Assembly (NCBI GenBank): GCA_964511345.1
Contig: CAZEEV010000001.1
Location: 150,621 to 214,620, forward strand
DNA from: an uncultured Pseudomonadales bacterium
GTDB taxonomy: Bacteria > Patescibacteriota > Microgenomatia > UBA1400 > PJMF01
Direction: 5' to 3'
Length of the DNA stretch: 64,000 nucleotides
Under the pieces are notes generated by a model. The model saw nothing but the letters and a program-made list of their open reading frames with translations. It was not told the origin of the DNA and ran no database searches. Within the stretch, counting starts at the first letter, position 1, and every line of letters starts with the position of its first letter. The position numbers and the translations under genes are program-made. Positions 22,234 to 37,816 of the stretch are shown here, piece by piece.

Positions 22234-22830
22234 ATGAGCGAAATAAAAAAGAAAAAAAGAGTAGGTGTGTATATTGATGGCTCAAATCTCTACTATGGTG
22301 GGCTTAAAGCAGGATGGCAATTAAATTATGCCAAAGTGAAGGTTTTTATTGAGCGAAAATATGAAATTGCGGTGATTAATTATTACAATTCAATTGGCTA
22401 TGAGAGAGGTAAGGATGGAAAATATATTAAGGATCAAAAAGGAGAATATATTTTTAATCAAGCTATACTAAGATTTGAAAACTATTTAAGAAAATTAAAA
22501 ATAAAAGTAATCTCTAAACCCTTAAAATTCATCAAGAGCAATGAATCAATCGCCACTAATAAATTAGATGGTGATATTATGATTGAGGCGTTATTGGATC
22601 ACAGAAAGTGGGATGAATTAATATTAATGAGTGGTGATTCTGATTTTGAGAGATTAGTAAAAGAAATTGCTTCACTAAAAAAGACGGTTCATATTTTTAG
22701 TTTTGGATCAAGAATTTCGCATGAGTTAAAAATGCTCTCTGTAGAATCTAATTTTGTTACTTTTACCAAGTTAGATAGTTTAAAACTAGTTTTAAAGCAT
22801 GAAATAAATTTGACAAAATACTCTAAATAA
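22234..22830 (+). CDS. NYN-domain (LabA/DUF88-like PIN-fold) protein
   Basis: 'RVGVYIDGSNLYYGG' and 'LMSGDSDFERLV' are characteristic of the NYN domain. Paralogous to 37247..37816. Confidence 0.75.
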   Translation: MSEIKKKKRVGVYIDGSNLYYGGLKAGWQLNYAKVKVFIERKYEIAVINYYNSIGYERGKDGKYIKDQKGEYIFNQAILRFENYLRKLKIKVISKPLKFIKSNESIATNKLDGDIMIEALLDHRKWDELILMSGDSDFERLVKEIASLKKTVHIFSFGSRISHELKMLSVESNFVTFTKLDSLKLVLKHEINLTKYSK

Positions 22831-22853
22831 GCTAACATTGAACTATATTTCCT

Positions 22854-22884
22854 CACCCGCCTAAATGGCGGGGTCTTTGTTTTA
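22854..22884 (+). terminator. rho-independent terminator (CACCCGCC-TAAAT-GGCGGGG-UCUUUGUUUU)
   Basis: GC-rich 6-7 bp stem plus T-run. Nearly identical to the terminator after the second NYN gene. Confidence 0.6.
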
Positions 22885-22920
22885 TAGATCAAAAAACTCC
22901 ATTTCCAAAATTAAGAGCAG

Positions 22921-23739
22921 ATGTTATACAATGAAGCAATGTTAGCCATTTTTAAAGAGATTCGTGATGTTATTAAGTGGCGTGAGTTGCTTGGACAAAT
23001 GGTTAGCCGTGAAGTTAAAGCACGTTATAAACAATCGATCTTAGGCTATTTCTGGATTATCTTAAATCCTCTGGCTCAAATGTTAGTGATGAGTTTTGCC
23101 TTTTCGATTATTATGCGCATCCCGACCAATGCGACGGATAACATTCCTTACTCGGTATTTCTTTTTGTAGCTTTGTTACCTTGGAATCTCTTTTCCAACT
23201 CACTAAGTTCTGCTTGTGGATCTTTAGTTGGTTCGGCTTCATTGATCACTAAAGTCTATTTCCCACGCACTATTTTGGTTTTATCGACTGTAATGGCTAA
23301 AATTATTGATTTTGCCTTGGCTCTGACCGTGCTAGTCGTTTATATGATTGCTTATCAGCTACCAATTAACCTCAATATTTTATGGGTAATTCCGATATTT
23401 TTGATTCAACAAATTTTTACCATGGGCTTGTCGTTATTTTTTGCAGCGGCTAATTTGCTTTATCGCGACATTCAATATTTATTATCTTTACTTTTACTTC
23501 TATGGATGTACCTAACACCAGTGATTTATCCAGCTGATTTGGTACCAGAACGCTATCAGTTTGTTTTTCAACTTAACCCAATGTCCGTCATTGTTAATGC
23601 CTATCGCCAAACCATTTTAGGTGGGGGCATGCCGAACCTAATCAGCATTAGTATTGCTTTAGTAGTTTCAATCTTAGTTTTATTAGTTGGTTTTTCTTAC
23701 TTTAAATCTAGAGAAAAAATCTTTTCGGATAATATTTAA
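22921..23739 (+). CDS. ABC-2 type polysaccharide/teichoic-acid export permease (Wzm/TagG-like)
   Basis: 272 aa, 6 TM helices. 'VKARYKQSILGYFWIILNPL' ABC-2 signature. Confidence 0.8.
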   Translation: MLYNEAMLAIFKEIRDVIKWRELLGQMVSREVKARYKQSILGYFWIILNPLAQMLVMSFAFSIIMRIPTNATDNIPYSVFLFVALLPWNLFSNSLSSACGSLVGSASLITKVYFPRTILVLSTVMAKIIDFALALTVLVVYMIAYQLPINLNILWVIPIFLIQQIFTMGLSLFFAAANLLYRDIQYLLSLLLLLWMYLTPVIYPADLVPERYQFVFQLNPMSVIVNAYRQTILGGGMPNLISISIALVVSILVLLVGFSYFKSREKIFSDNI

Positions 23740-23740
23740 T

Positions 23741-24478
23741 ATGTCAGATACTGTTATTAAATTCCAAAATGTCACTAAGAAATTTGCTTTTCAAAGTCAA
23801 AAGACTTTCAAAGAATTTTTGCCAGCTTTAATTAGAGGTGAAGAAACTAGTAAAGGTTTTACTGCGCTTGATAATATTAGTTTTGAAATTGAAAAAGGTG
23901 AGAGCATTGGCATTATTGGGCCAAATGGTTCTGGAAAATCTACCATTCTTAAATTAATCGCTGGAGTGATGTCGCCAACGATGGGTAAAGTTGAGGTTGA
24001 AGGGCAAATTTCACCTTTAATTGAACTAGGCGCTGGTATGCACCCAGAATTGACTGGTATGGAGAATATTTACCTAAATGGTGCCATTCTGGGTCTTAAA
24101 AAGAAACAAATTGATGCTAATCTGCAAAGTATCATCGATTTCTCAGAAATAGAGGAGTTTATTAATCAACCAGTTAAACACTATTCATCTGGGATGTATA
24201 TGCGCTTGGCTTTTGCGATTGCTGTCCACGTTAATCCAGAAATTTTAATCGTCGACGAAATATTGGCAGTGGGCGACGATGCTTTCCAAAAAAAATGTTT
24301 TAGAAAAATGGAAGAATTCAAACAAAATGGAGTAACCATTATCTTTGTGTCGCATTCATTAGGACAAGTGAGAGAATTCTGTAATAAAGCAATTTATATT
24401 AATCACAGTAAGCTTATTGCCCAGGGCAATGTAGATGAGGTGTGCGATAAATATCAAGCCGATGCAGTAAATAAATAA
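23741..24478 (+). CDS. ABC transporter ATP-binding protein (Wzt/TagH-like)
   Basis: ATG at 23741. Walker A 'GPNGSGKST', signature 'YSSGMYMRLAFA', Walker B 'ILIVDE'. Confidence 0.85.
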   Translation: MSDTVIKFQNVTKKFAFQSQKTFKEFLPALIRGEETSKGFTALDNISFEIEKGESIGIIGPNGSGKSTILKLIAGVMSPTMGKVEVEGQISPLIELGAGMHPELTGMENIYLNGAILGLKKKQIDANLQSIIDFSEIEEFINQPVKHYSSGMYMRLAFAIAVHVNPEILIVDEILAVGDDAFQKKCFRKMEEFKQNGVTIIFVSHSLGQVREFCNKAIYINHSKLIAQGNVDEVCDKYQADAVNK

Positions 24479-24480
24479 CT

Positions 24481-36470: not shown

Positions 36471-36914
36471 CTAGATTTTCTCAAGAGTTGTTTGTGCTTT
36501 AATATTAAAAACACCTTCTTTGTCGAGTTGCGCCAAATAAATTGAATGATTTGCGTCTCCCTCTACTGTCAATCCTGAAAGGGATAGAGAAATGCAGCTA
36601 AGTGGCAATACTCCTTTATCACCAGCAAACAAAGTAAAAAGTTCTCCATTTATCAATTTAATAGCACTTGCATTAGGTATGCCTAGTTTTAGATAAGTTA
36701 CAACCTTAGCCTGCATCAACATTTCTTGAGAATAGCCAATTTTTTTGGCATTTAAACGAATCTTTAAGTTATTTGCCAATTTACTATCAATCACTAAATG
36801 GGCTGTTGCTCCAAGAGGAATTGTTCTCCTTAACTCCTTGAATTTCTTAAAAATCTCGCGCAAAACTTCTCTATTTGAATATTCTATTTTGCCTGATTTT
36901 TCTGGTGTGCCCAT
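36471..36914 (-). CDS. hypothetical protein (147 aa)
   Basis: ORF with AAGGA RBS-like sequence and a TTGTCA-17-TATATT promoter-like element upstream on the minus strand. No recognisable domain. Confidence 0.35.
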   Translation of the reverse strand: MGTPEKSGKIEYSNREVLREIFKKFKELRRTIPLGATAHLVIDSKLANNLKIRLNAKKIGYSQEMLMQAKVVTYLKLGIPNASAIKLINGELFTLFAGDKGVLPLSCISLSLSGLTVEGDANHSIYLAQLDKEGVFNIKAQTTLEKI

Positions 36915-37013
36915 TTTTCCTTTTTGTTTTTTATTTTGTTAGCCTGGCTTTTAACTATCCTGAAAATATATCAAATGAGATCATTTTTGACAAGAGAGGG
37001 GAAAGGAGGGAAA

Positions 37014-37042
37014 TTGACAAAAATACTCTTAAAAATGTATAA
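37014..37042 (+). promoter_or_regulatory. consensus sigma70 promoter TTGACA-(17/18)-TATAAT
   Basis: Perfect -35 and -10 hexamers. No annotated plus-strand gene follows within 800 nt. The transcript would run into the convergent NYN terminator. Confidence 0.35.
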
Positions 37043-37160
37043 TATTTTTTAAAGATTGGATCGAAAGTACCGGACGAGGTCTTGGCTATACGCCAAAATC
37101 AATGACTCCAACTACTGCGGTCCTTCTTTTTTTCATAGGGGATCTTTCAATGTTTTTAGA

Positions 37161-37195
37161 GCTCTAAAAACAAAGACCCCGCCTTGCGGCGGGTG
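37161..37195 (-). terminator. rho-independent terminator of the second NYN gene (CACCCGCC-GCAA-GGCGGGG-UCUUUGUUUUU on the minus strand)
   Basis: Stem CCCGCC/GGCGGG with T-run. Near-identical to the 22854-22884 element. Confidence 0.6.
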
Positions 37196-37246
37196 AATTC
37201 CATTGCTAGTAATATACCAATTTGTTTTTATTATGTCAACCGTGAC

Positions 37247-37816
37247 TCAGGTTCTCACAAAACCAACCTGGTCTTTAATATCATCAAGATAAGTAAAATG
37301 TACGTTTAAATTATTAATACTTAAATCTTTTATTTCCCAAGAAATAAACTTTTTATAGCTAAAGACTCTAACTACTAATCCAGCGTTAACAGCTTTGATA
37401 ATCAATGGCTCATAATCACAATCGCCAGCACATAAAAATAAAACTTCTAATGAATTCATTTCTGTAATAGCGTCTGCTAACAGAAAGGTGTCTGATTTAT
37501 CTTTAGGCTTTTTTATATCTCCTTCAATTAGCTTAAGTGGATGAGTGTTCACTCTGAAACCAATGCCTTTTAAAAACTTAAAAAACTTTTGCTGTTTGGT
37601 ATTTGGAATATATTTGCCAAATTGATCTTTGAGGTACTTTCTGTCTGGTCCAACCTCATAACCAGCAGGAGAATAATAAGCCTTAATTCCAAGATTAACA
37701 TCAAATCTCTTTTCAATATATTCAACTAATTTCTGATAATCAATCATCCAACCCATTGATTTGCCGCTCATAAACATGTTCTGTGCATCAACATATAAAC
37801 CAGCTTTGTTTGGCAT
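37247..37816 (-). CDS. NYN-domain (LabA/DUF88-like) protein, paralog of 22234..22830
   Basis: 'GLYVDAQNMFMSG' and 'FLCAGDCDYEPLI' are equivalent to the paralog's 'VYIDGSNLYYGG' and 'LMSGDSDFERLV'. Confidence 0.75.
   Translation of the reverse strand: MPNKAGLYVDAQNMFMSGKSMGWMIDYQKLVEYIEKRFDVNLGIKAYYSPAGYEVGPDRKYLKDQFGKYIPNTKQQKFFKFLKGIGFRVNTHPLKLIEGDIKKPKDKSDTFLLADAITEMNSLEVLFLCAGDCDYEPLIIKAVNAGLVVRVFSYKKFISWEIKDLSINNLNVHFTYLDDIKDQVGFVRT

What the first reader, a model, noticed from the sequence alone, without database searches (positions are those of the whole stretch)
22234..37816. Inverted pair of paralogous NYN-domain genes with near-identical terminators bracketing a ~15-kb glycan island
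Two LabA/NYN-type PIN-fold proteins (22234..22830 + and 37247..37816 -) share their diagnostic motifs. Each is followed by almost the same terminator hairpin, CACCCGCC-loop-GGCGGGG-UCUUUGUUUU (22854-22884, and 37161-37195 on the minus strand). The two copies are in inverted orientation. Between them lie the ABC exporter, the flippase/GT2/GT-C module, the AT-rich cassette, the ncRNA candidate and the Wzx gene. Conservation of a non-coding terminator between diverged paralogs suggests a recent duplication of the 3' region, or that the pair acts as inverted recombination substrates able to invert or mobilise the intervening cassette. NYN nucleases are also recurrent in RNA-processing and defence contexts.
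Basis: seen in the sequence. Interest (0 to 1): 0.6.

Follow-up and report, generated by a model that had tools for sequence, protein, structure and literature searches.

The report
NYN nuclease genes with linked mini-RNA
The two look-alike "terminators" are copies of a conserved promoter-plus-hairpin unit, probably a gene for a roughly 40-nt RNA, that follows this kind of NYN nuclease gene in many candidate-phyla bacteria, and nothing suggests they flip the sugar-gene island between them.

Summary
Two NYN (PF01936) paralogues, 33% identical and in inverted orientation, are each followed by the same hairpin, CACCCGCC-loop-GGCGGGGTCTTTGTTTT. These are the only two copies in 64 kb.

The shared element is not a recent duplication. 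It is an old, selected module: TTGACA-17-TAnnAT, then 13-14 nt, then TCA-CCCGCC-loop-GGCGGG-RTCTTTGTT. It follows all nine independent NYN homologues of at least 49% identity that I sampled by protein, including loci outside glycan regions and one phage-like contig. The TTGACA lies in different reading frames, the stem shows compensatory changes and the loops vary.

More distant NYN homologues from candidate phyla carry other small RNA genes at their 3' ends, on the opposite strand. One type has strong covariation. Three orphan copies of the module also exist.

Eight contigs from six samples cross the hairpin junctions, and all are collinear with the window. The longest exact match between the two copies is 17 nt, and no recombinase gene was found.

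The island is strain-variable from 24.45 to 37.15 kb, and the right-hand breakpoint lies just after the NYN2 element.

Best reading: a NYN-linked small RNA that also terminates the NYN gene, probably a partner or regulator of the nuclease. No Rfam family and no paper describing it was found. Expression and function are untested.

The parts
22234..22830 (+). NYN1: LabA-like NYN-domain protein, 198 aa. Its mRNA is probably leaderless, because a -10-like CATAAT ends 8 nt before the ATG.
   Evidence: ORF list. Pfam PF01936, 70.3 bits. AlphaFold2 model with pLDDT 92, whose only significant PDB neighbour is 2QIP. Upstream sequence.
22810..22838 (+). Promoter-like site overlapping the end of NYN1: TTGACA (22810-22815), 17 nt, TAACAT (22833-22838). 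The predicted transcription start is near 22845-22846.
   Evidence: Promoter scan, 10 of 12 matches. The same TTGACA-17-TAnnAT lies at the same distance from the hairpin in 17 aligned loci. The TTGACA falls in different reading frames or after the stop codon in different loci.
22846..22884 (+). Predicted small RNA and terminator of about 39 nt, copy 1. Leader UAUUUCCUCA, stem CCCGCC (22856-22861) with GGCGGG (22867-22872), loop UAAAU, tail GUCUUUGUUUU.
   Evidence: Fold of -13.7 kcal/mol, z -2.67. Covariance model R1 scores it 67.3 bits.
37247..37816 (-). NYN2: paralogous NYN-domain protein, 189 aa, 33% identical to NYN1.
37211..37239 (-). Promoter-like site just after the NYN2 stop codon: TTGACA, 17 nt, TG-extended TATATT.
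   Evidence: Promoter scan, 11 of 12 matches with a TG. Conserved in the 72% orthologue L089 and in the orphan copy L083.
37161..37204 (-). Predicted small RNA and terminator of about 40 nt, copy 2. Leader ..GGAAUUCA, stem CCCGCC (37193-37188) with GGCGGG (37183-37178), GNRA loop GCAA, tail GUCUUUGUUUUU.
   Evidence: R1 scores it 75.5 bits. Fold of -14.0 kcal/mol.
37152..37171 (.). Perfect 20-nt AT-rich palindrome GTTTTTAGAGCTCTAAAAAC, overlapping the U-tract of copy 2. Only partly matched in copy 1 (22879-22897) and not conserved in other genomes.
   Evidence: Read. Absent from the alignment of other loci.
24454..37144 (.). Strain-variable glycan gene block with low G+C (26-31% over much of it). 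The left breakpoint is at the end of the ABC ATPase gene. The right breakpoint is 7 nt past the copy-2 palindrome.
   Evidence: BLASTN of L007 against the window stops at 24453. L004, L006 and L092 stop at 37145. Gene content differs between strains. Composition.
36515..37144 (.). Insert of about 630 bp, present in the window, L003 and L005 but absent in L004, L006 and L092. It carries a 147-aa ORF with no family match (36471-36914, -) and a perfect sigma-70 consensus (37014-37043, +) that points at the NYN2 3' end.

Best explanation
Each window NYN gene ends in its own copy of an ancient, selected module. The module is a sigma-70-type promoter that overlaps or directly follows the stop codon, then 13-14 nt, then a 6-bp GC hairpin and a fixed tail: TCA-CCCGCC-loop-GGCGGG-RUCUUUGUUU.

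The hairpin most likely does two jobs. It terminates the NYN mRNA, and it forms the body of a separately transcribed RNA of about 40 nt. The two copies look alike because this RNA predates the NYN1/NYN2 split and its sequence is under purifying selection. Recent duplication or recombination is not the cause.

My inference about function is that the RNA works together with the nuclease. It could be a bound inhibitor or decoy, like an RNA antitoxin, or an autoregulatory target. It probably acts in trans, because a related NYN family carries a similar unit on the opposite strand and orphan copies exist.

Shown: the conservation, the architecture, the covariation and the linkage to NYN. Inferred: that the RNA is transcribed, and what it does. 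The position at the edges of the glycan island reflects synteny in this lineage and is not a property of the module.
For: 1. Nine of nine independent NYN homologues sampled by protein carry the module. These are window NYN1 and NYN2, L008 (69%), L009 (61%), L010 (58%), L011 (71%), L085 (52%), L087 (49%) and L089 (72% to NYN2).

2. The promoter hexamers, the 17-nt spacer and the 13-14 nt distance to TCACCC are kept, while the surrounding intergenic sequence is not (A3 and A4). The TTGACA sits in different reading frames or after the stop codon, so the constraint is on the DNA and not on the protein.

3. The stem is 100% paired in 17 sequences. There are compensatory changes: C-G to G-C in L010, L054 and L084, and G-C to U-A in L085. 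No shuffle out of 500 reached the observed covariation score. Loops vary in length and sequence, and GNRA tetraloops are common.

4. In L008, L009 and L011 the next gene is a convergent glf, so in those genomes the promoter cannot be serving a downstream operon.

5. A context-blind pattern scan of metagenomes gave 33 hits. Most were in contigs of 55-72% G+C with no promoter upstream, which I take as chance. Thirteen were in contigs below 50% G+C. Seven of those (six distinct loci) lie directly 3' of an NYN gene, and three more (L055, L059, L083) have the full leader-plus-hairpin architecture without an NYN gene. The promoter was not part of the search pattern, yet it is present in all the NYN-linked hits.

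6. More distant NYN homologues from candidate phyla (25-37% identity) carry convergent small RNA genes. These have consensus promoters and a terminator that overlaps the NYN stop codon. One type has 13 of 17 pairs with compensatory changes. R1 also matches L044 on the opposite strand, at 37 bits and E 4e-4.

7. The window holds exactly two R1 hits.

8. No Rfam family matches these elements.
Against: No expression data exist, so the transcription start, the RNA's 3' end and its stability are all predictions. A single 6-bp hairpin carries little information, and four of its six pairs never vary.

Sequences that came from the pattern scan were selected for their stem and tail, so their conservation at those positions is circular. 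Only the promoter and the spacing are independent evidence in that subset.

The homologues sampled by protein are few and all come from one part of the candidate phyla radiation. The orphan copy L055 has a poor promoter.

Nothing demonstrates a physical or functional interaction between the RNA and the NYN protein. The co-directional arrangement in the window and the convergent arrangement in distant families could reflect different mechanisms.
Confidence: 0.6

Rival explanations
1. The elements are only efficient intrinsic terminators. Both NYN genes simply end in a good GC hairpin with a U-tract, and the upstream promoter-like boxes are chance matches or promoters of the next gene.
For: They are the two best terminator-like sites in 20-40 kb, and they lie 23 and 51 nt after the stop codons. 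AT-rich DNA gives many promoter-like matches: 98 found against about 80 expected in shuffles.
Against: A generic terminator is free to drift, but here the stem sequence, the flanking TCA and the interrupted tail UCUUUGUU are kept across proteins that are 33-72% identical. TTGACA-17-TAnnAT lies at a fixed 13-14 nt from the hairpin in nearly all of the 17 aligned loci; L055, left out of that alignment, has only a poor match. In three genomes the next gene is convergent. The ABC operon and the 147-aa ORF have promoter-like sites of their own. Orphan copies exist without an NYN gene.
Confidence: 0.17
2. The two inverted copies are substrates for recombination that inverts or mobilises the block from 22.9 to 37.2 kb, or they arose by a recent duplication of the 3' region.
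For: The two copies are inverted and about 45 nt long, and they are the best inverted pair in the region. The right-hand breakpoint of strain variation lies at 37145, just past copy 2. The block between them has low G+C and varies between strains.
Against: The longest exact identity is 17 nt, and the loops differ. The Pfam scans of ORFs of at least 80 aa between 21 and 39 kb found no recombinase or integrase. All eight contigs from six samples that cross a junction have the window's orientation. The left-hand breakpoint is at 24453, after the ABC genes, and not at copy 1. The element is present as a single copy in other genomes and in non-glycan contexts, so its conservation needs no recent duplication.
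Confidence: 0.04
3. The NYN gene plus hairpin is a small selfish mobile cassette, with a free-standing nuclease gene carrying its own promoter and terminator. It moves between intergenic sites, and the hairpin marks its end.
For: The block of nucleotide homology between genomes is exactly the gene plus the hairpin (window 22261-22882). Its order relative to glf is swapped in L008, L009 and L011. Contexts differ widely, including a phage-like contig next to an IS-like gene. PADLOC gives weak hits to NYN and HEC-09 models.
Against: I saw no terminal repeats or target duplications. Copy number is low, at two diverged paralogues per 64 kb. NYN1 keeps a syntenic position in five related genomes (window, L007, L008, L009, L011). 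No relatives turned up in IMG/VR. This model also does not explain a promoter that fires into the terminator.
Confidence: 0.09
4. The promoter and hairpin form a cis-regulatory leader or attenuator for downstream glycan genes, comparable to antitermination leaders of polysaccharide operons.
For: In the window, copy 1 lies 37-55 nt upstream of the ABC exporter genes, depending on the start codon used, and on the same strand. Several other loci have a same-strand gene downstream.
Against: The downstream gene is convergent in L008, L009 and L011. Downstream genes are unrelated from locus to locus: histidine kinase, an IS-like gene, hypotheticals. The ABC gene has a promoter-like site of its own, TTTCCA-17-TATACA, ending about 9 nt before its probable start at 22939 (the gene call in L007, agrees). 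There is no alternative antiterminator structure, and the RNA folds into the one hairpin only.
Confidence: 0.05

Closest known systems
DUF3800-associated RNA motifs, with drum and skipping-rope (Weinberg et al. 2017, PMC5737381; Rfam RF02964 and relatives)
   Same: These are small conserved RNAs that end in Rho-independent terminators and are tied to genes for one protein domain. They occur in either orientation, several unrelated RNA structures serve the same domain, and their function is unknown. Here the NYN genes carry at least three RNA types, co-directional or convergent. A DUF3800-V RNA even lies about 80 nt from the NYN-linked RNA promoter in L037.
   Different: The partner protein here is an NYN nuclease and not DUF3800. 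The window RNA is far simpler, with one 6-bp hairpin in about 40 nt. No Rfam model matches it.
Type I 3'UTR-derived small RNAs such as DapZ and MicL (from my own knowledge, not tested here)
   Same: The promoter sits inside or just after the end of a coding sequence, and the small RNA shares the mRNA's terminator.
   Different: The known examples are 80-300 nt, depend on Hfq and have defined seed regions and targets. They are not tied to one protein family across phyla. Here the RNA is about 40 nt, no target is known, and sister families have it on the opposite strand.
Type III toxin-antitoxin systems such as ToxIN, CptIN and TenpIN (from my own knowledge)
   Same: An endoribonuclease gene is tightly linked to a small RNA of about 36-45 nt with a terminator. 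The idea that the RNA binds and neutralises the nuclease would fit the linkage seen here.
   Different: In those systems the antitoxin is a tandem repeat array upstream of the toxin, and the toxin is a ToxN-family protein. Here there is a single unit downstream and an NYN (PIN-like) protein. Neither toxicity nor binding has been tested.
Type I toxin-antitoxin pairs with 3'-overlapping antisense RNAs, such as txpA/RatA and bsrG/SR4 (from my own knowledge)
   Same: In the distant NYN families the small RNA is convergent, and its terminator overlaps the NYN stop codon.
   Different: In the window the RNA is co-directional, so it cannot pair with the NYN mRNA. Type I toxins are small membrane peptides and not nucleases.
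Hypervariable surface-polysaccharide loci with conserved flanking genes, such as O-antigen or capsule loci (from my own knowledge)
   Same: A low-G+C block of glycosyltransferase, Wzx and ABC genes differs between near-identical strains, with sharp breakpoints against conserved flanks.
   Different: The flank on one side happens to be the NYN2 module. In a 72% orthologue the same module is not next to any glycan genes.
LabA-like NYN proteins (Pfam PF01936; PDB 2QIP)
   Same: Sequence and predicted fold match, and the conserved acidic residues are present.
   Different: The window subfamily has an insertion at about residues 55-75, and some orthologues have an N-terminal HTH_17 domain. I found no reported RNA partner for LabA-like proteins in the searches I ran.

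Membership tests
NYN / LabA-like domain (PF01936) | Match to the Pfam model above its gathering score | tested here: met
   70.3 and 55.4 bits against a cut-off of 24.2.
NYN / LabA-like domain (PF01936) | Conserved acidic active-site residues of the PIN-like fold | tested here: met
   D15, N18, D112, D135 and D137 are invariant in 20 sequences, including both window proteins. The model has pLDDT 92 and its only significant PDB neighbour is 2QIP.
NYN / LabA-like domain (PF01936) | Nuclease activity | not testable with these tools
   This needs biochemistry.
Intrinsic (Rho-independent) terminator | GC-rich stem-loop followed by a U-rich tract, downstream of a stop codon | tested here: met
   Six G-C pairs with tail GUCUUUGUUU, the top two sites in the scan. 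Folds of -13.7 and -14.0 kcal/mol.
Intrinsic (Rho-independent) terminator | Transcripts actually end there | not testable with these tools
   No transcriptome is available.
Independently transcribed small RNA sharing the mRNA terminator (type I 3'UTR sRNA architecture) | A promoter of its own at the 3' end of the upstream coding sequence | tested here: met
   TTGACA-17-TAnnAT at a fixed distance in 17 loci, and in different reading frames. This is sequence evidence only.
Independently transcribed small RNA sharing the mRNA terminator (type I 3'UTR sRNA architecture) | Detected transcript and defined targets | not testable with these tools
   No expression data, and no target search was possible.
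Type III toxin-antitoxin | Tandem repeats of antitoxin RNA upstream of the toxin gene | tested here: not met
   There is a single unit, downstream of the gene. No tandem copies were found.
Type III toxin-antitoxin | ToxN, CptN or TenpN family toxin | tested here: not met
   The protein is NYN. PADLOC gives only weak NYN and HEC-09 hits.
Type I toxin-antitoxin (3'-overlapping antisense RNA) | RNA complementary to the toxin mRNA | tested here: not met
   The window RNA is on the same strand as the NYN gene. This feature is met only in distant families.
Invertible or mobilisable segment bounded by inverted repeats | A recombinase gene, or long identical repeats | tested here: not met
   No ORF of at least 80 aa between 21 and 39 kb is a recombinase. 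The longest exact match is 17 nt.
Invertible or mobilisable segment bounded by inverted repeats | Both orientations present in sequence data | tested here: not met
   Eight contigs from six samples are all collinear with the window. Raw reads were not examined.
Hypervariable polysaccharide locus with conserved flanks | Different gene content between strains with near-identical flanks | tested here: met
   L007 diverges after 24453. L092, L004 and L006 diverge after 37145, and their gene sets differ.
Rfam families (any) | Covariance-model match | tested here: not met
   No hit at gathering thresholds in the window. Only chance-level hits in permissive searches.

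The most novel reading that the evidence does not exclude
LabA-type NYN nucleases of candidate-phyla (Patescibacteria) bacteria form two-part systems with a dedicated small RNA encoded at the 3' end of the gene. At least three RNA types exist, in either orientation. The RNA would be an antitoxin-like inhibitor, or a specificity or regulatory cofactor, of the nuclease. Because some of these RNA promoters carry perfect DnaA boxes, expression may be tied to replication status. 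That would be a previously undescribed class of nuclease-RNA module, carried here in two paralogous copies.
Probability: 0.25. Interest if true: 0.8.

Novelty: new variant of a known kind. Interest (0 to 1): 0.55.

Why it matters
Candidate-phyla bacteria have tiny genomes, few recognised regulators and almost no characterised small RNAs. An RNA unit that stays attached to one nuclease family across wide divergence would give a concrete, testable case of RNA-protein partnership in these organisms. The unit survives changes of orientation and of genomic context, including a phage-like contig. It might turn out to be an RNA-antitoxin or nuclease-control system. It would also give a first functional lead for LabA-type NYN proteins, whose role in bacteria is unknown.

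For the scan itself, the result is a caution. Near-identical "terminators" on diverged paralogues can reflect a conserved RNA gene and need not mean recent recombination.

Tried and rejected
- Rfam. The gathering-threshold search of the whole window gave no hits. Permissive searches around both copies gave only chance-level hits.
- tRNA and tmRNA scan: none found.
- Opposite-strand reading of the window elements. A weak reverse promoter (TTGGAA-16-TATAAA) can be read at copy 1, but it is not conserved at copy 2 or in L009 and L011. I rejected it on reading.
- Antisense small ORF behind the hairpin of copy 1. A GAGGA followed by an ATG can be read on the reverse strand, but it is absent at copy 2. 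Rejected.
- Pairing of the RNA with the NYN 5' UTR. The NYN mRNAs look leaderless, so there is no ribosome-binding region to pair with.
- A bidirectional terminator shared with the convergent glf in L008 and L009. There is no U-tract on the other strand.
- Viral collections. The hairpin pattern and the NYN relatives gave nothing in IMG/VR.
- Defence-system models. Only weak generic NYN and HEC-09 hits. PHROGs gave only an unknown-function family, and NCBIfam gave nothing.
- Literature. Searches for NYN with small RNA, toxin-antitoxin or Patescibacteria found no description of such a module.
- Similarity of the leader to the 16S 3' region. This rested on a 9-mer recalled from memory and was not tested, so I dropped it as unsupported.

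Full report

Yes. ORFs 22234..22830 (+, 198 aa) and 37247..37816 (-, 189 aa) both match Pfam NYN PF01936 well above its cut-off. They are 33% identical, E 2e-35. Both keep the invariant D15, N18, D112, D135 and D137 of a 20-sequence family alignment. A profile search finds no third NYN gene in the window.

CCCGCC-N(4-5)-GGCGGG occurs only at 22856-22872 (+) and 37193-37178 (-), against 0 expected. The 17-mer GGCGGGGTCTTTGTTTT is exact in both. The shared stretch of about 45 nt is the longest inverted pair in 20-40 kb. These are also the two best terminator-like sites there.

Pfam confirms the genes in between. Glf lies just outside. Inside are ABC-2 permease and ATPase, GT1, GT2, a small EamA-type protein, GT2, GT-C (PMT_2), GT2, a GT2/GT1 fusion, an epimerase, a split GT8, Wzx and two ORFs with no match.

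**2. The shared element is larger than a terminator.**

Both hairpins are preceded by a sigma-70-type promoter. Copy 1 has TTGACA-17-TAACAT at 22810-22838 (+), overlapping the last NYN1 codons. Copy 2 has TTGACA-17-(TG)TATATT at 37239-37211 (-), just after the NYN2 stop codon. In both, 14 nt separate the -10 hexamer from TCACCCGCC.

A start 7-8 nt after the -10 would give an RNA of about 40 nt. It would have a short leader, a 6-bp GC stem and the tail GUCUUUGUUUU. The predicted fold is the single hairpin (-13.7 and -14.0 kcal/mol).

**3. The module is conserved with this NYN family in other genomes.**

Protein searches and contig look-ups gave NYN1-type homologues at the following identities:
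- 99% (L007)
- 71% (L011)
- 69% (L008)
- 61% (L009)
- 58% (L010, a Gottesmanbacteria genome)
- 52% (L085)
- 49% (L087)

They also gave NYN2-type homologues at 99% (L092, L004, L006) and 72% (L089-L091). Every one has the same unit 3' of the gene: TTGACA (or TTGAYY)-17-TAnnAT, then 13-14 nt, then T(C/T)A-CCCGCC-loop-GGCGGG-(G/A)TCTT(T/C)GTT (alignments A3 and A4).

Four features argue for selection on the element itself.
- The TTGACA lies in different reading frames (TTG-ACA in NYN1, xTT-GAC-A in L008 and L009) or after the stop codon (NYN2, L010, L011). The constraint is therefore on the DNA and not on the protein.
- Loops vary from 4 to 8 nt, and GAAA and GCAA (GNRA) are frequent.
- The stem is paired in 102 of 102 cells. 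L010 has C-G changed to G-C and L085 has G-C changed to U-A, both from protein-based sampling. L054 and L084 also carry the G-C form. No shuffle out of 500 reached the observed covariation score, and sliding the partners destroys the pairing.
- RNA subtypes follow protein subtypes. NYN2, its 72% orthologue L089 and the orphan L083 all share TATATT, ..AATTCACCC and a GCAA loop.

Covariance model R1 built from A4 finds exactly two hits in the window (75.5 and 67.3 bits).

**4. A context-blind test of the link to NYN.**

I scanned JGI metagenome contigs for ACCCGSC-N(3-9)-GSCGGGRTCTTYGTT, which gave 33 hits. Most were in contigs of 55-72% G+C, inside coding sequence and with no promoter upstream, and I take these as chance.

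Thirteen hits were in contigs below 50% G+C.
- Seven (six distinct loci: L053, L054, L065, L075=L077, L079, L084) lie 32-89 nt after an NYN gene on the same strand.
- Three more have the full leader-plus-hairpin architecture without an NYN gene. L055 follows an AAA_14/DUF4143 ATPase gene. L059 lies between a Schlafen/AlbA_2 gene and a DUF4143 gene. L083 follows a ComM-like gene.
- The remaining three (L062, L066, L068) have no NYN gene and no promoter at the module's fixed distance.

The promoter was not part of the search pattern, yet it is present in all the NYN-linked hits and in L059 and L083. The stem and tail of these sequences were selected by the pattern, so they add nothing to the conservation argument at those positions.

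**5. Context: the module is not a glycan-locus feature.**

NYN1 orthologues keep a syntenic place in L007, L008, L009 and L011, after the block ArgRS-GT2-GT4-...-471 aa and next to glf and variable glycan genes. Other contexts differ:
- L085 lies among hypothetical genes.
- L087 lies at the edge of a phage-like contig with Mom, MT-A70, HNH and a TnpB-like gene. An open reading frame that I judged IS-like, from reading its first codons only, follows the module.
- The NYN2 orthologue L089 lies among two-component system genes.

In L008, L009 and L011 the order is NYN then glf (convergent), where the window has glf then NYN. The block of nucleotide homology is exactly the gene plus the hairpin, 22261-22882. 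Because the next gene is convergent in those genomes, the promoter cannot be serving a downstream operon there. In the window, the ABC genes have a promoter-like site of their own (TTTCCA-17-TATACA, ending about 9 nt before the probable start at 22939, with the L007 gene call). So does the 147-aa ORF.

**6. The island and the inversion idea.**

The block is strain-variable. L007 (90% nucleotide identity) follows the window up to 24453, the end of the ABC ATPase gene. It then carries different genes: GT1, a hexapeptide transferase, DegT and a 923-aa GT fusion. L092, L004 and L006 follow the window from 38.3 kb down to 37145, which is 7 nt past the copy-2 palindrome. They lack about 630 bp (36515-37144, holding the 147-aa ORF), continue into an 80%-identical Wzx, and then carry different genes: RelB, AdoHcyase, PfkB, GT2s, a split transketolase and a methyltransferase. 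G+C drops to 26-31% inside the block.

So this is a typical hypervariable polysaccharide locus. Its right edge abuts the NYN2 module. Its left edge is 1.6 kb to the right of NYN1.

Nothing supports inversion between the hairpins:
- All 8 contigs from 6 samples that cross a junction are collinear with the window.
- The longest exact identity is 17 nt.
- No ORF of at least 80 aa between 21 and 39 kb is a recombinase.

Raw reads were not available to me.

**7. A wider pattern.**

The 25-37% identical NYN homologues from other candidate-phyla genomes lack the window's element. Almost all of them have a convergent small RNA gene instead, with a consensus promoter (often 11-12 of 12 matches) and a terminator that overlaps the NYN stop codon.

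One type, about 70 nt long, occurs in L030, L033, L034, L036-L038, L040-L042, L045-L047, L049 and L050. It has a covarying hairpin, with 13 of 17 predicted pairs showing compensatory changes, and a conserved linker AUCAACUGCRG.

A short type occurs in L013, L018 and L044, with longer variants in L014-L017 and L023. Its leader..AAACYUUCC, runs into a GC hairpin. It resembles the window's AUUACUUCA-CCCGCC in size and sequence. R1 matches L044 on the opposite strand at 37 bits, E 4e-4.

Adjacency is therefore kept while orientation is not. That favours a trans-acting RNA over a purely cis-acting 3' UTR element.

None of these RNAs is in Rfam. The nearest published parallel is the set of DUF3800-associated RNA motifs: terminator-ended RNAs tied to one protein domain, in either orientation and with many unrelated structures (PMC5737381).

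**8. Mechanism.**

Shown: a conserved promoter-plus-hairpin unit linked to NYN genes, base-pairing under selection, two copies in the window, and no known family.

Inferred: the unit is transcribed into an RNA of about 40 nt that also serves as the NYN terminator, and the RNA acts with the nuclease. The RNA could be an inhibitor or decoy, as in type III toxin-antitoxin pairs whose processed RNA units are of similar size (from my own knowledge). It could also be an autoregulatory target at the mRNA's 3' end. A CU-rich leader acting as a seed for other mRNAs is possible too.

The membership tests for type III and type I toxin-antitoxin systems fail on their defining features: there are no tandem repeats, the protein is not a ToxN-family toxin, and the window RNA is co-directional. 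I therefore claim only a possible functional analogy to those systems. The protein is a confident LabA-like NYN fold (pLDDT 92, with 2QIP as the only significant neighbour), and its substrate is unknown.

**9. Verdict.**

The recombination and recent-duplication reading is not supported. The conserved NYN-linked small-RNA module is real and, as far as Rfam and the searchable literature show, undescribed. Its function is untested.

- Interest: 0.55.
- Novelty: a new variant of a known kind, namely small RNAs linked to genes for one protein domain.

Noticed in passing
L030, L033, L034, L036-L038, L040-L042, L045-L047, L049, L050 (for example L037:10565-10633, minus strand): Distant NYN homologues from candidate-phyla genomes have a convergent RNA gene of about 70 nt with a consensus promoter. 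The RNA has a covarying hairpin (13 of 17 pairs with compensatory changes), a conserved linker AUCAACUGCRG that contains the NYN stop codon on the other strand, and a terminator. No Rfam family matches it.
   Followed up: partly
L033:10283, L037:10665, L038:10663, L042:4597, L049:3189, L085:10585, L087:10579: Perfect DnaA boxes (TTATCCACA) sit right at the NYN-linked RNA promoters. In five loci of the 70-nt type the box is just upstream of the -35. In two loci of the window's type it lies inside the spacer. The window has no perfect DnaA box at all.
   Followed up: partly
L055:5046-5071, L059:10201-10226 (-), L083:6640-6665 (-): Orphan copies of the hairpin module occur without an NYN gene. 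Two of them lie next to AAA_14/DUF4143 ATPase genes, one of those also beside a Schlafen/AlbA_2 gene. The third follows a ComM-like gene.
   Followed up: partly
window 36515-37144: A strain-specific insert of about 630 bp lies directly after the NYN2 element. It holds a 147-aa ORF (36471-36914, -) with no match in Pfam, PHROGs, PADLOC or NCBIfam. It also holds a perfect 12-of-12 sigma-70 consensus at 37014-37043 (+), which would transcribe antisense through the hairpin into NYN2.
   Followed up: partly
window 37152-37171: A perfect 20-nt palindrome, GTTTTTAGAGCTCTAAAAAC, overlaps the U-tract of copy 2, and the strain breakpoint lies 7 nt beyond it. It is only partly mirrored at copy 1 and is not conserved in other genomes.
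   Followed up: partly
window 33596-34398 (-): The GT8 glycosyltransferase is split into two overlapping ORFs. One covers profile positions 2-78 and the other 79-251. This is a probable frameshift or pseudogene.
   Followed up: no
window 22216-22233, 22924-22938; L008, L009, L085, L087 upstream of NYN: The NYN genes and the ABC permease gene have -10-like hexamers ending 6-9 nt before the start codon and no Shine-Dalgarno sequence. This suggests leaderless mRNAs in this lineage.
   Followed up: no
window 19553-21030, compared with L007:4049-4677: There is another strain difference left of glf. The window has about 1.5 kb that is absent from L007, and L007 instead carries a Gp49/HTH_3 (HigB/HigA-like) gene pair.
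   Followed up: no
window about 26-30 kb: Cumulative GC skew rises from 0 to about 1.5 up to 26-30 kb and then falls until about 48 kb. The glycan island therefore sits at a change of skew sign, which could mark a replication terminus or a rearrangement.
   Followed up: no
L037:10747-10842 (-): A DUF3800-V RNA (Rfam RF02964, 72.9 bits) lies about 80 nt upstream of the NYN-linked RNA promoter, on the same strand.
   Followed up: no
P0010, P0017, P0021, P0022 and L053, L065, L075, L079: Many NYN1-type orthologues are 240-250 aa long and have an N-terminal extension of about 50 residues. For three database proteins (P0011, P0018, P0022) it is annotated as HTH_17 (PF12728), which hints at DNA binding.
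   Followed up: no
window 34880-34904: A symmetric hairpin, AAAAGCCAC..GTGGCTTTT, reads as a terminator on both strands. It lies between the 116-aa ORF and Wzx. A 41-nt stretch covering it (34876-34916) is 95% conserved in L092, although the neighbouring genes differ.
   Followed up: no
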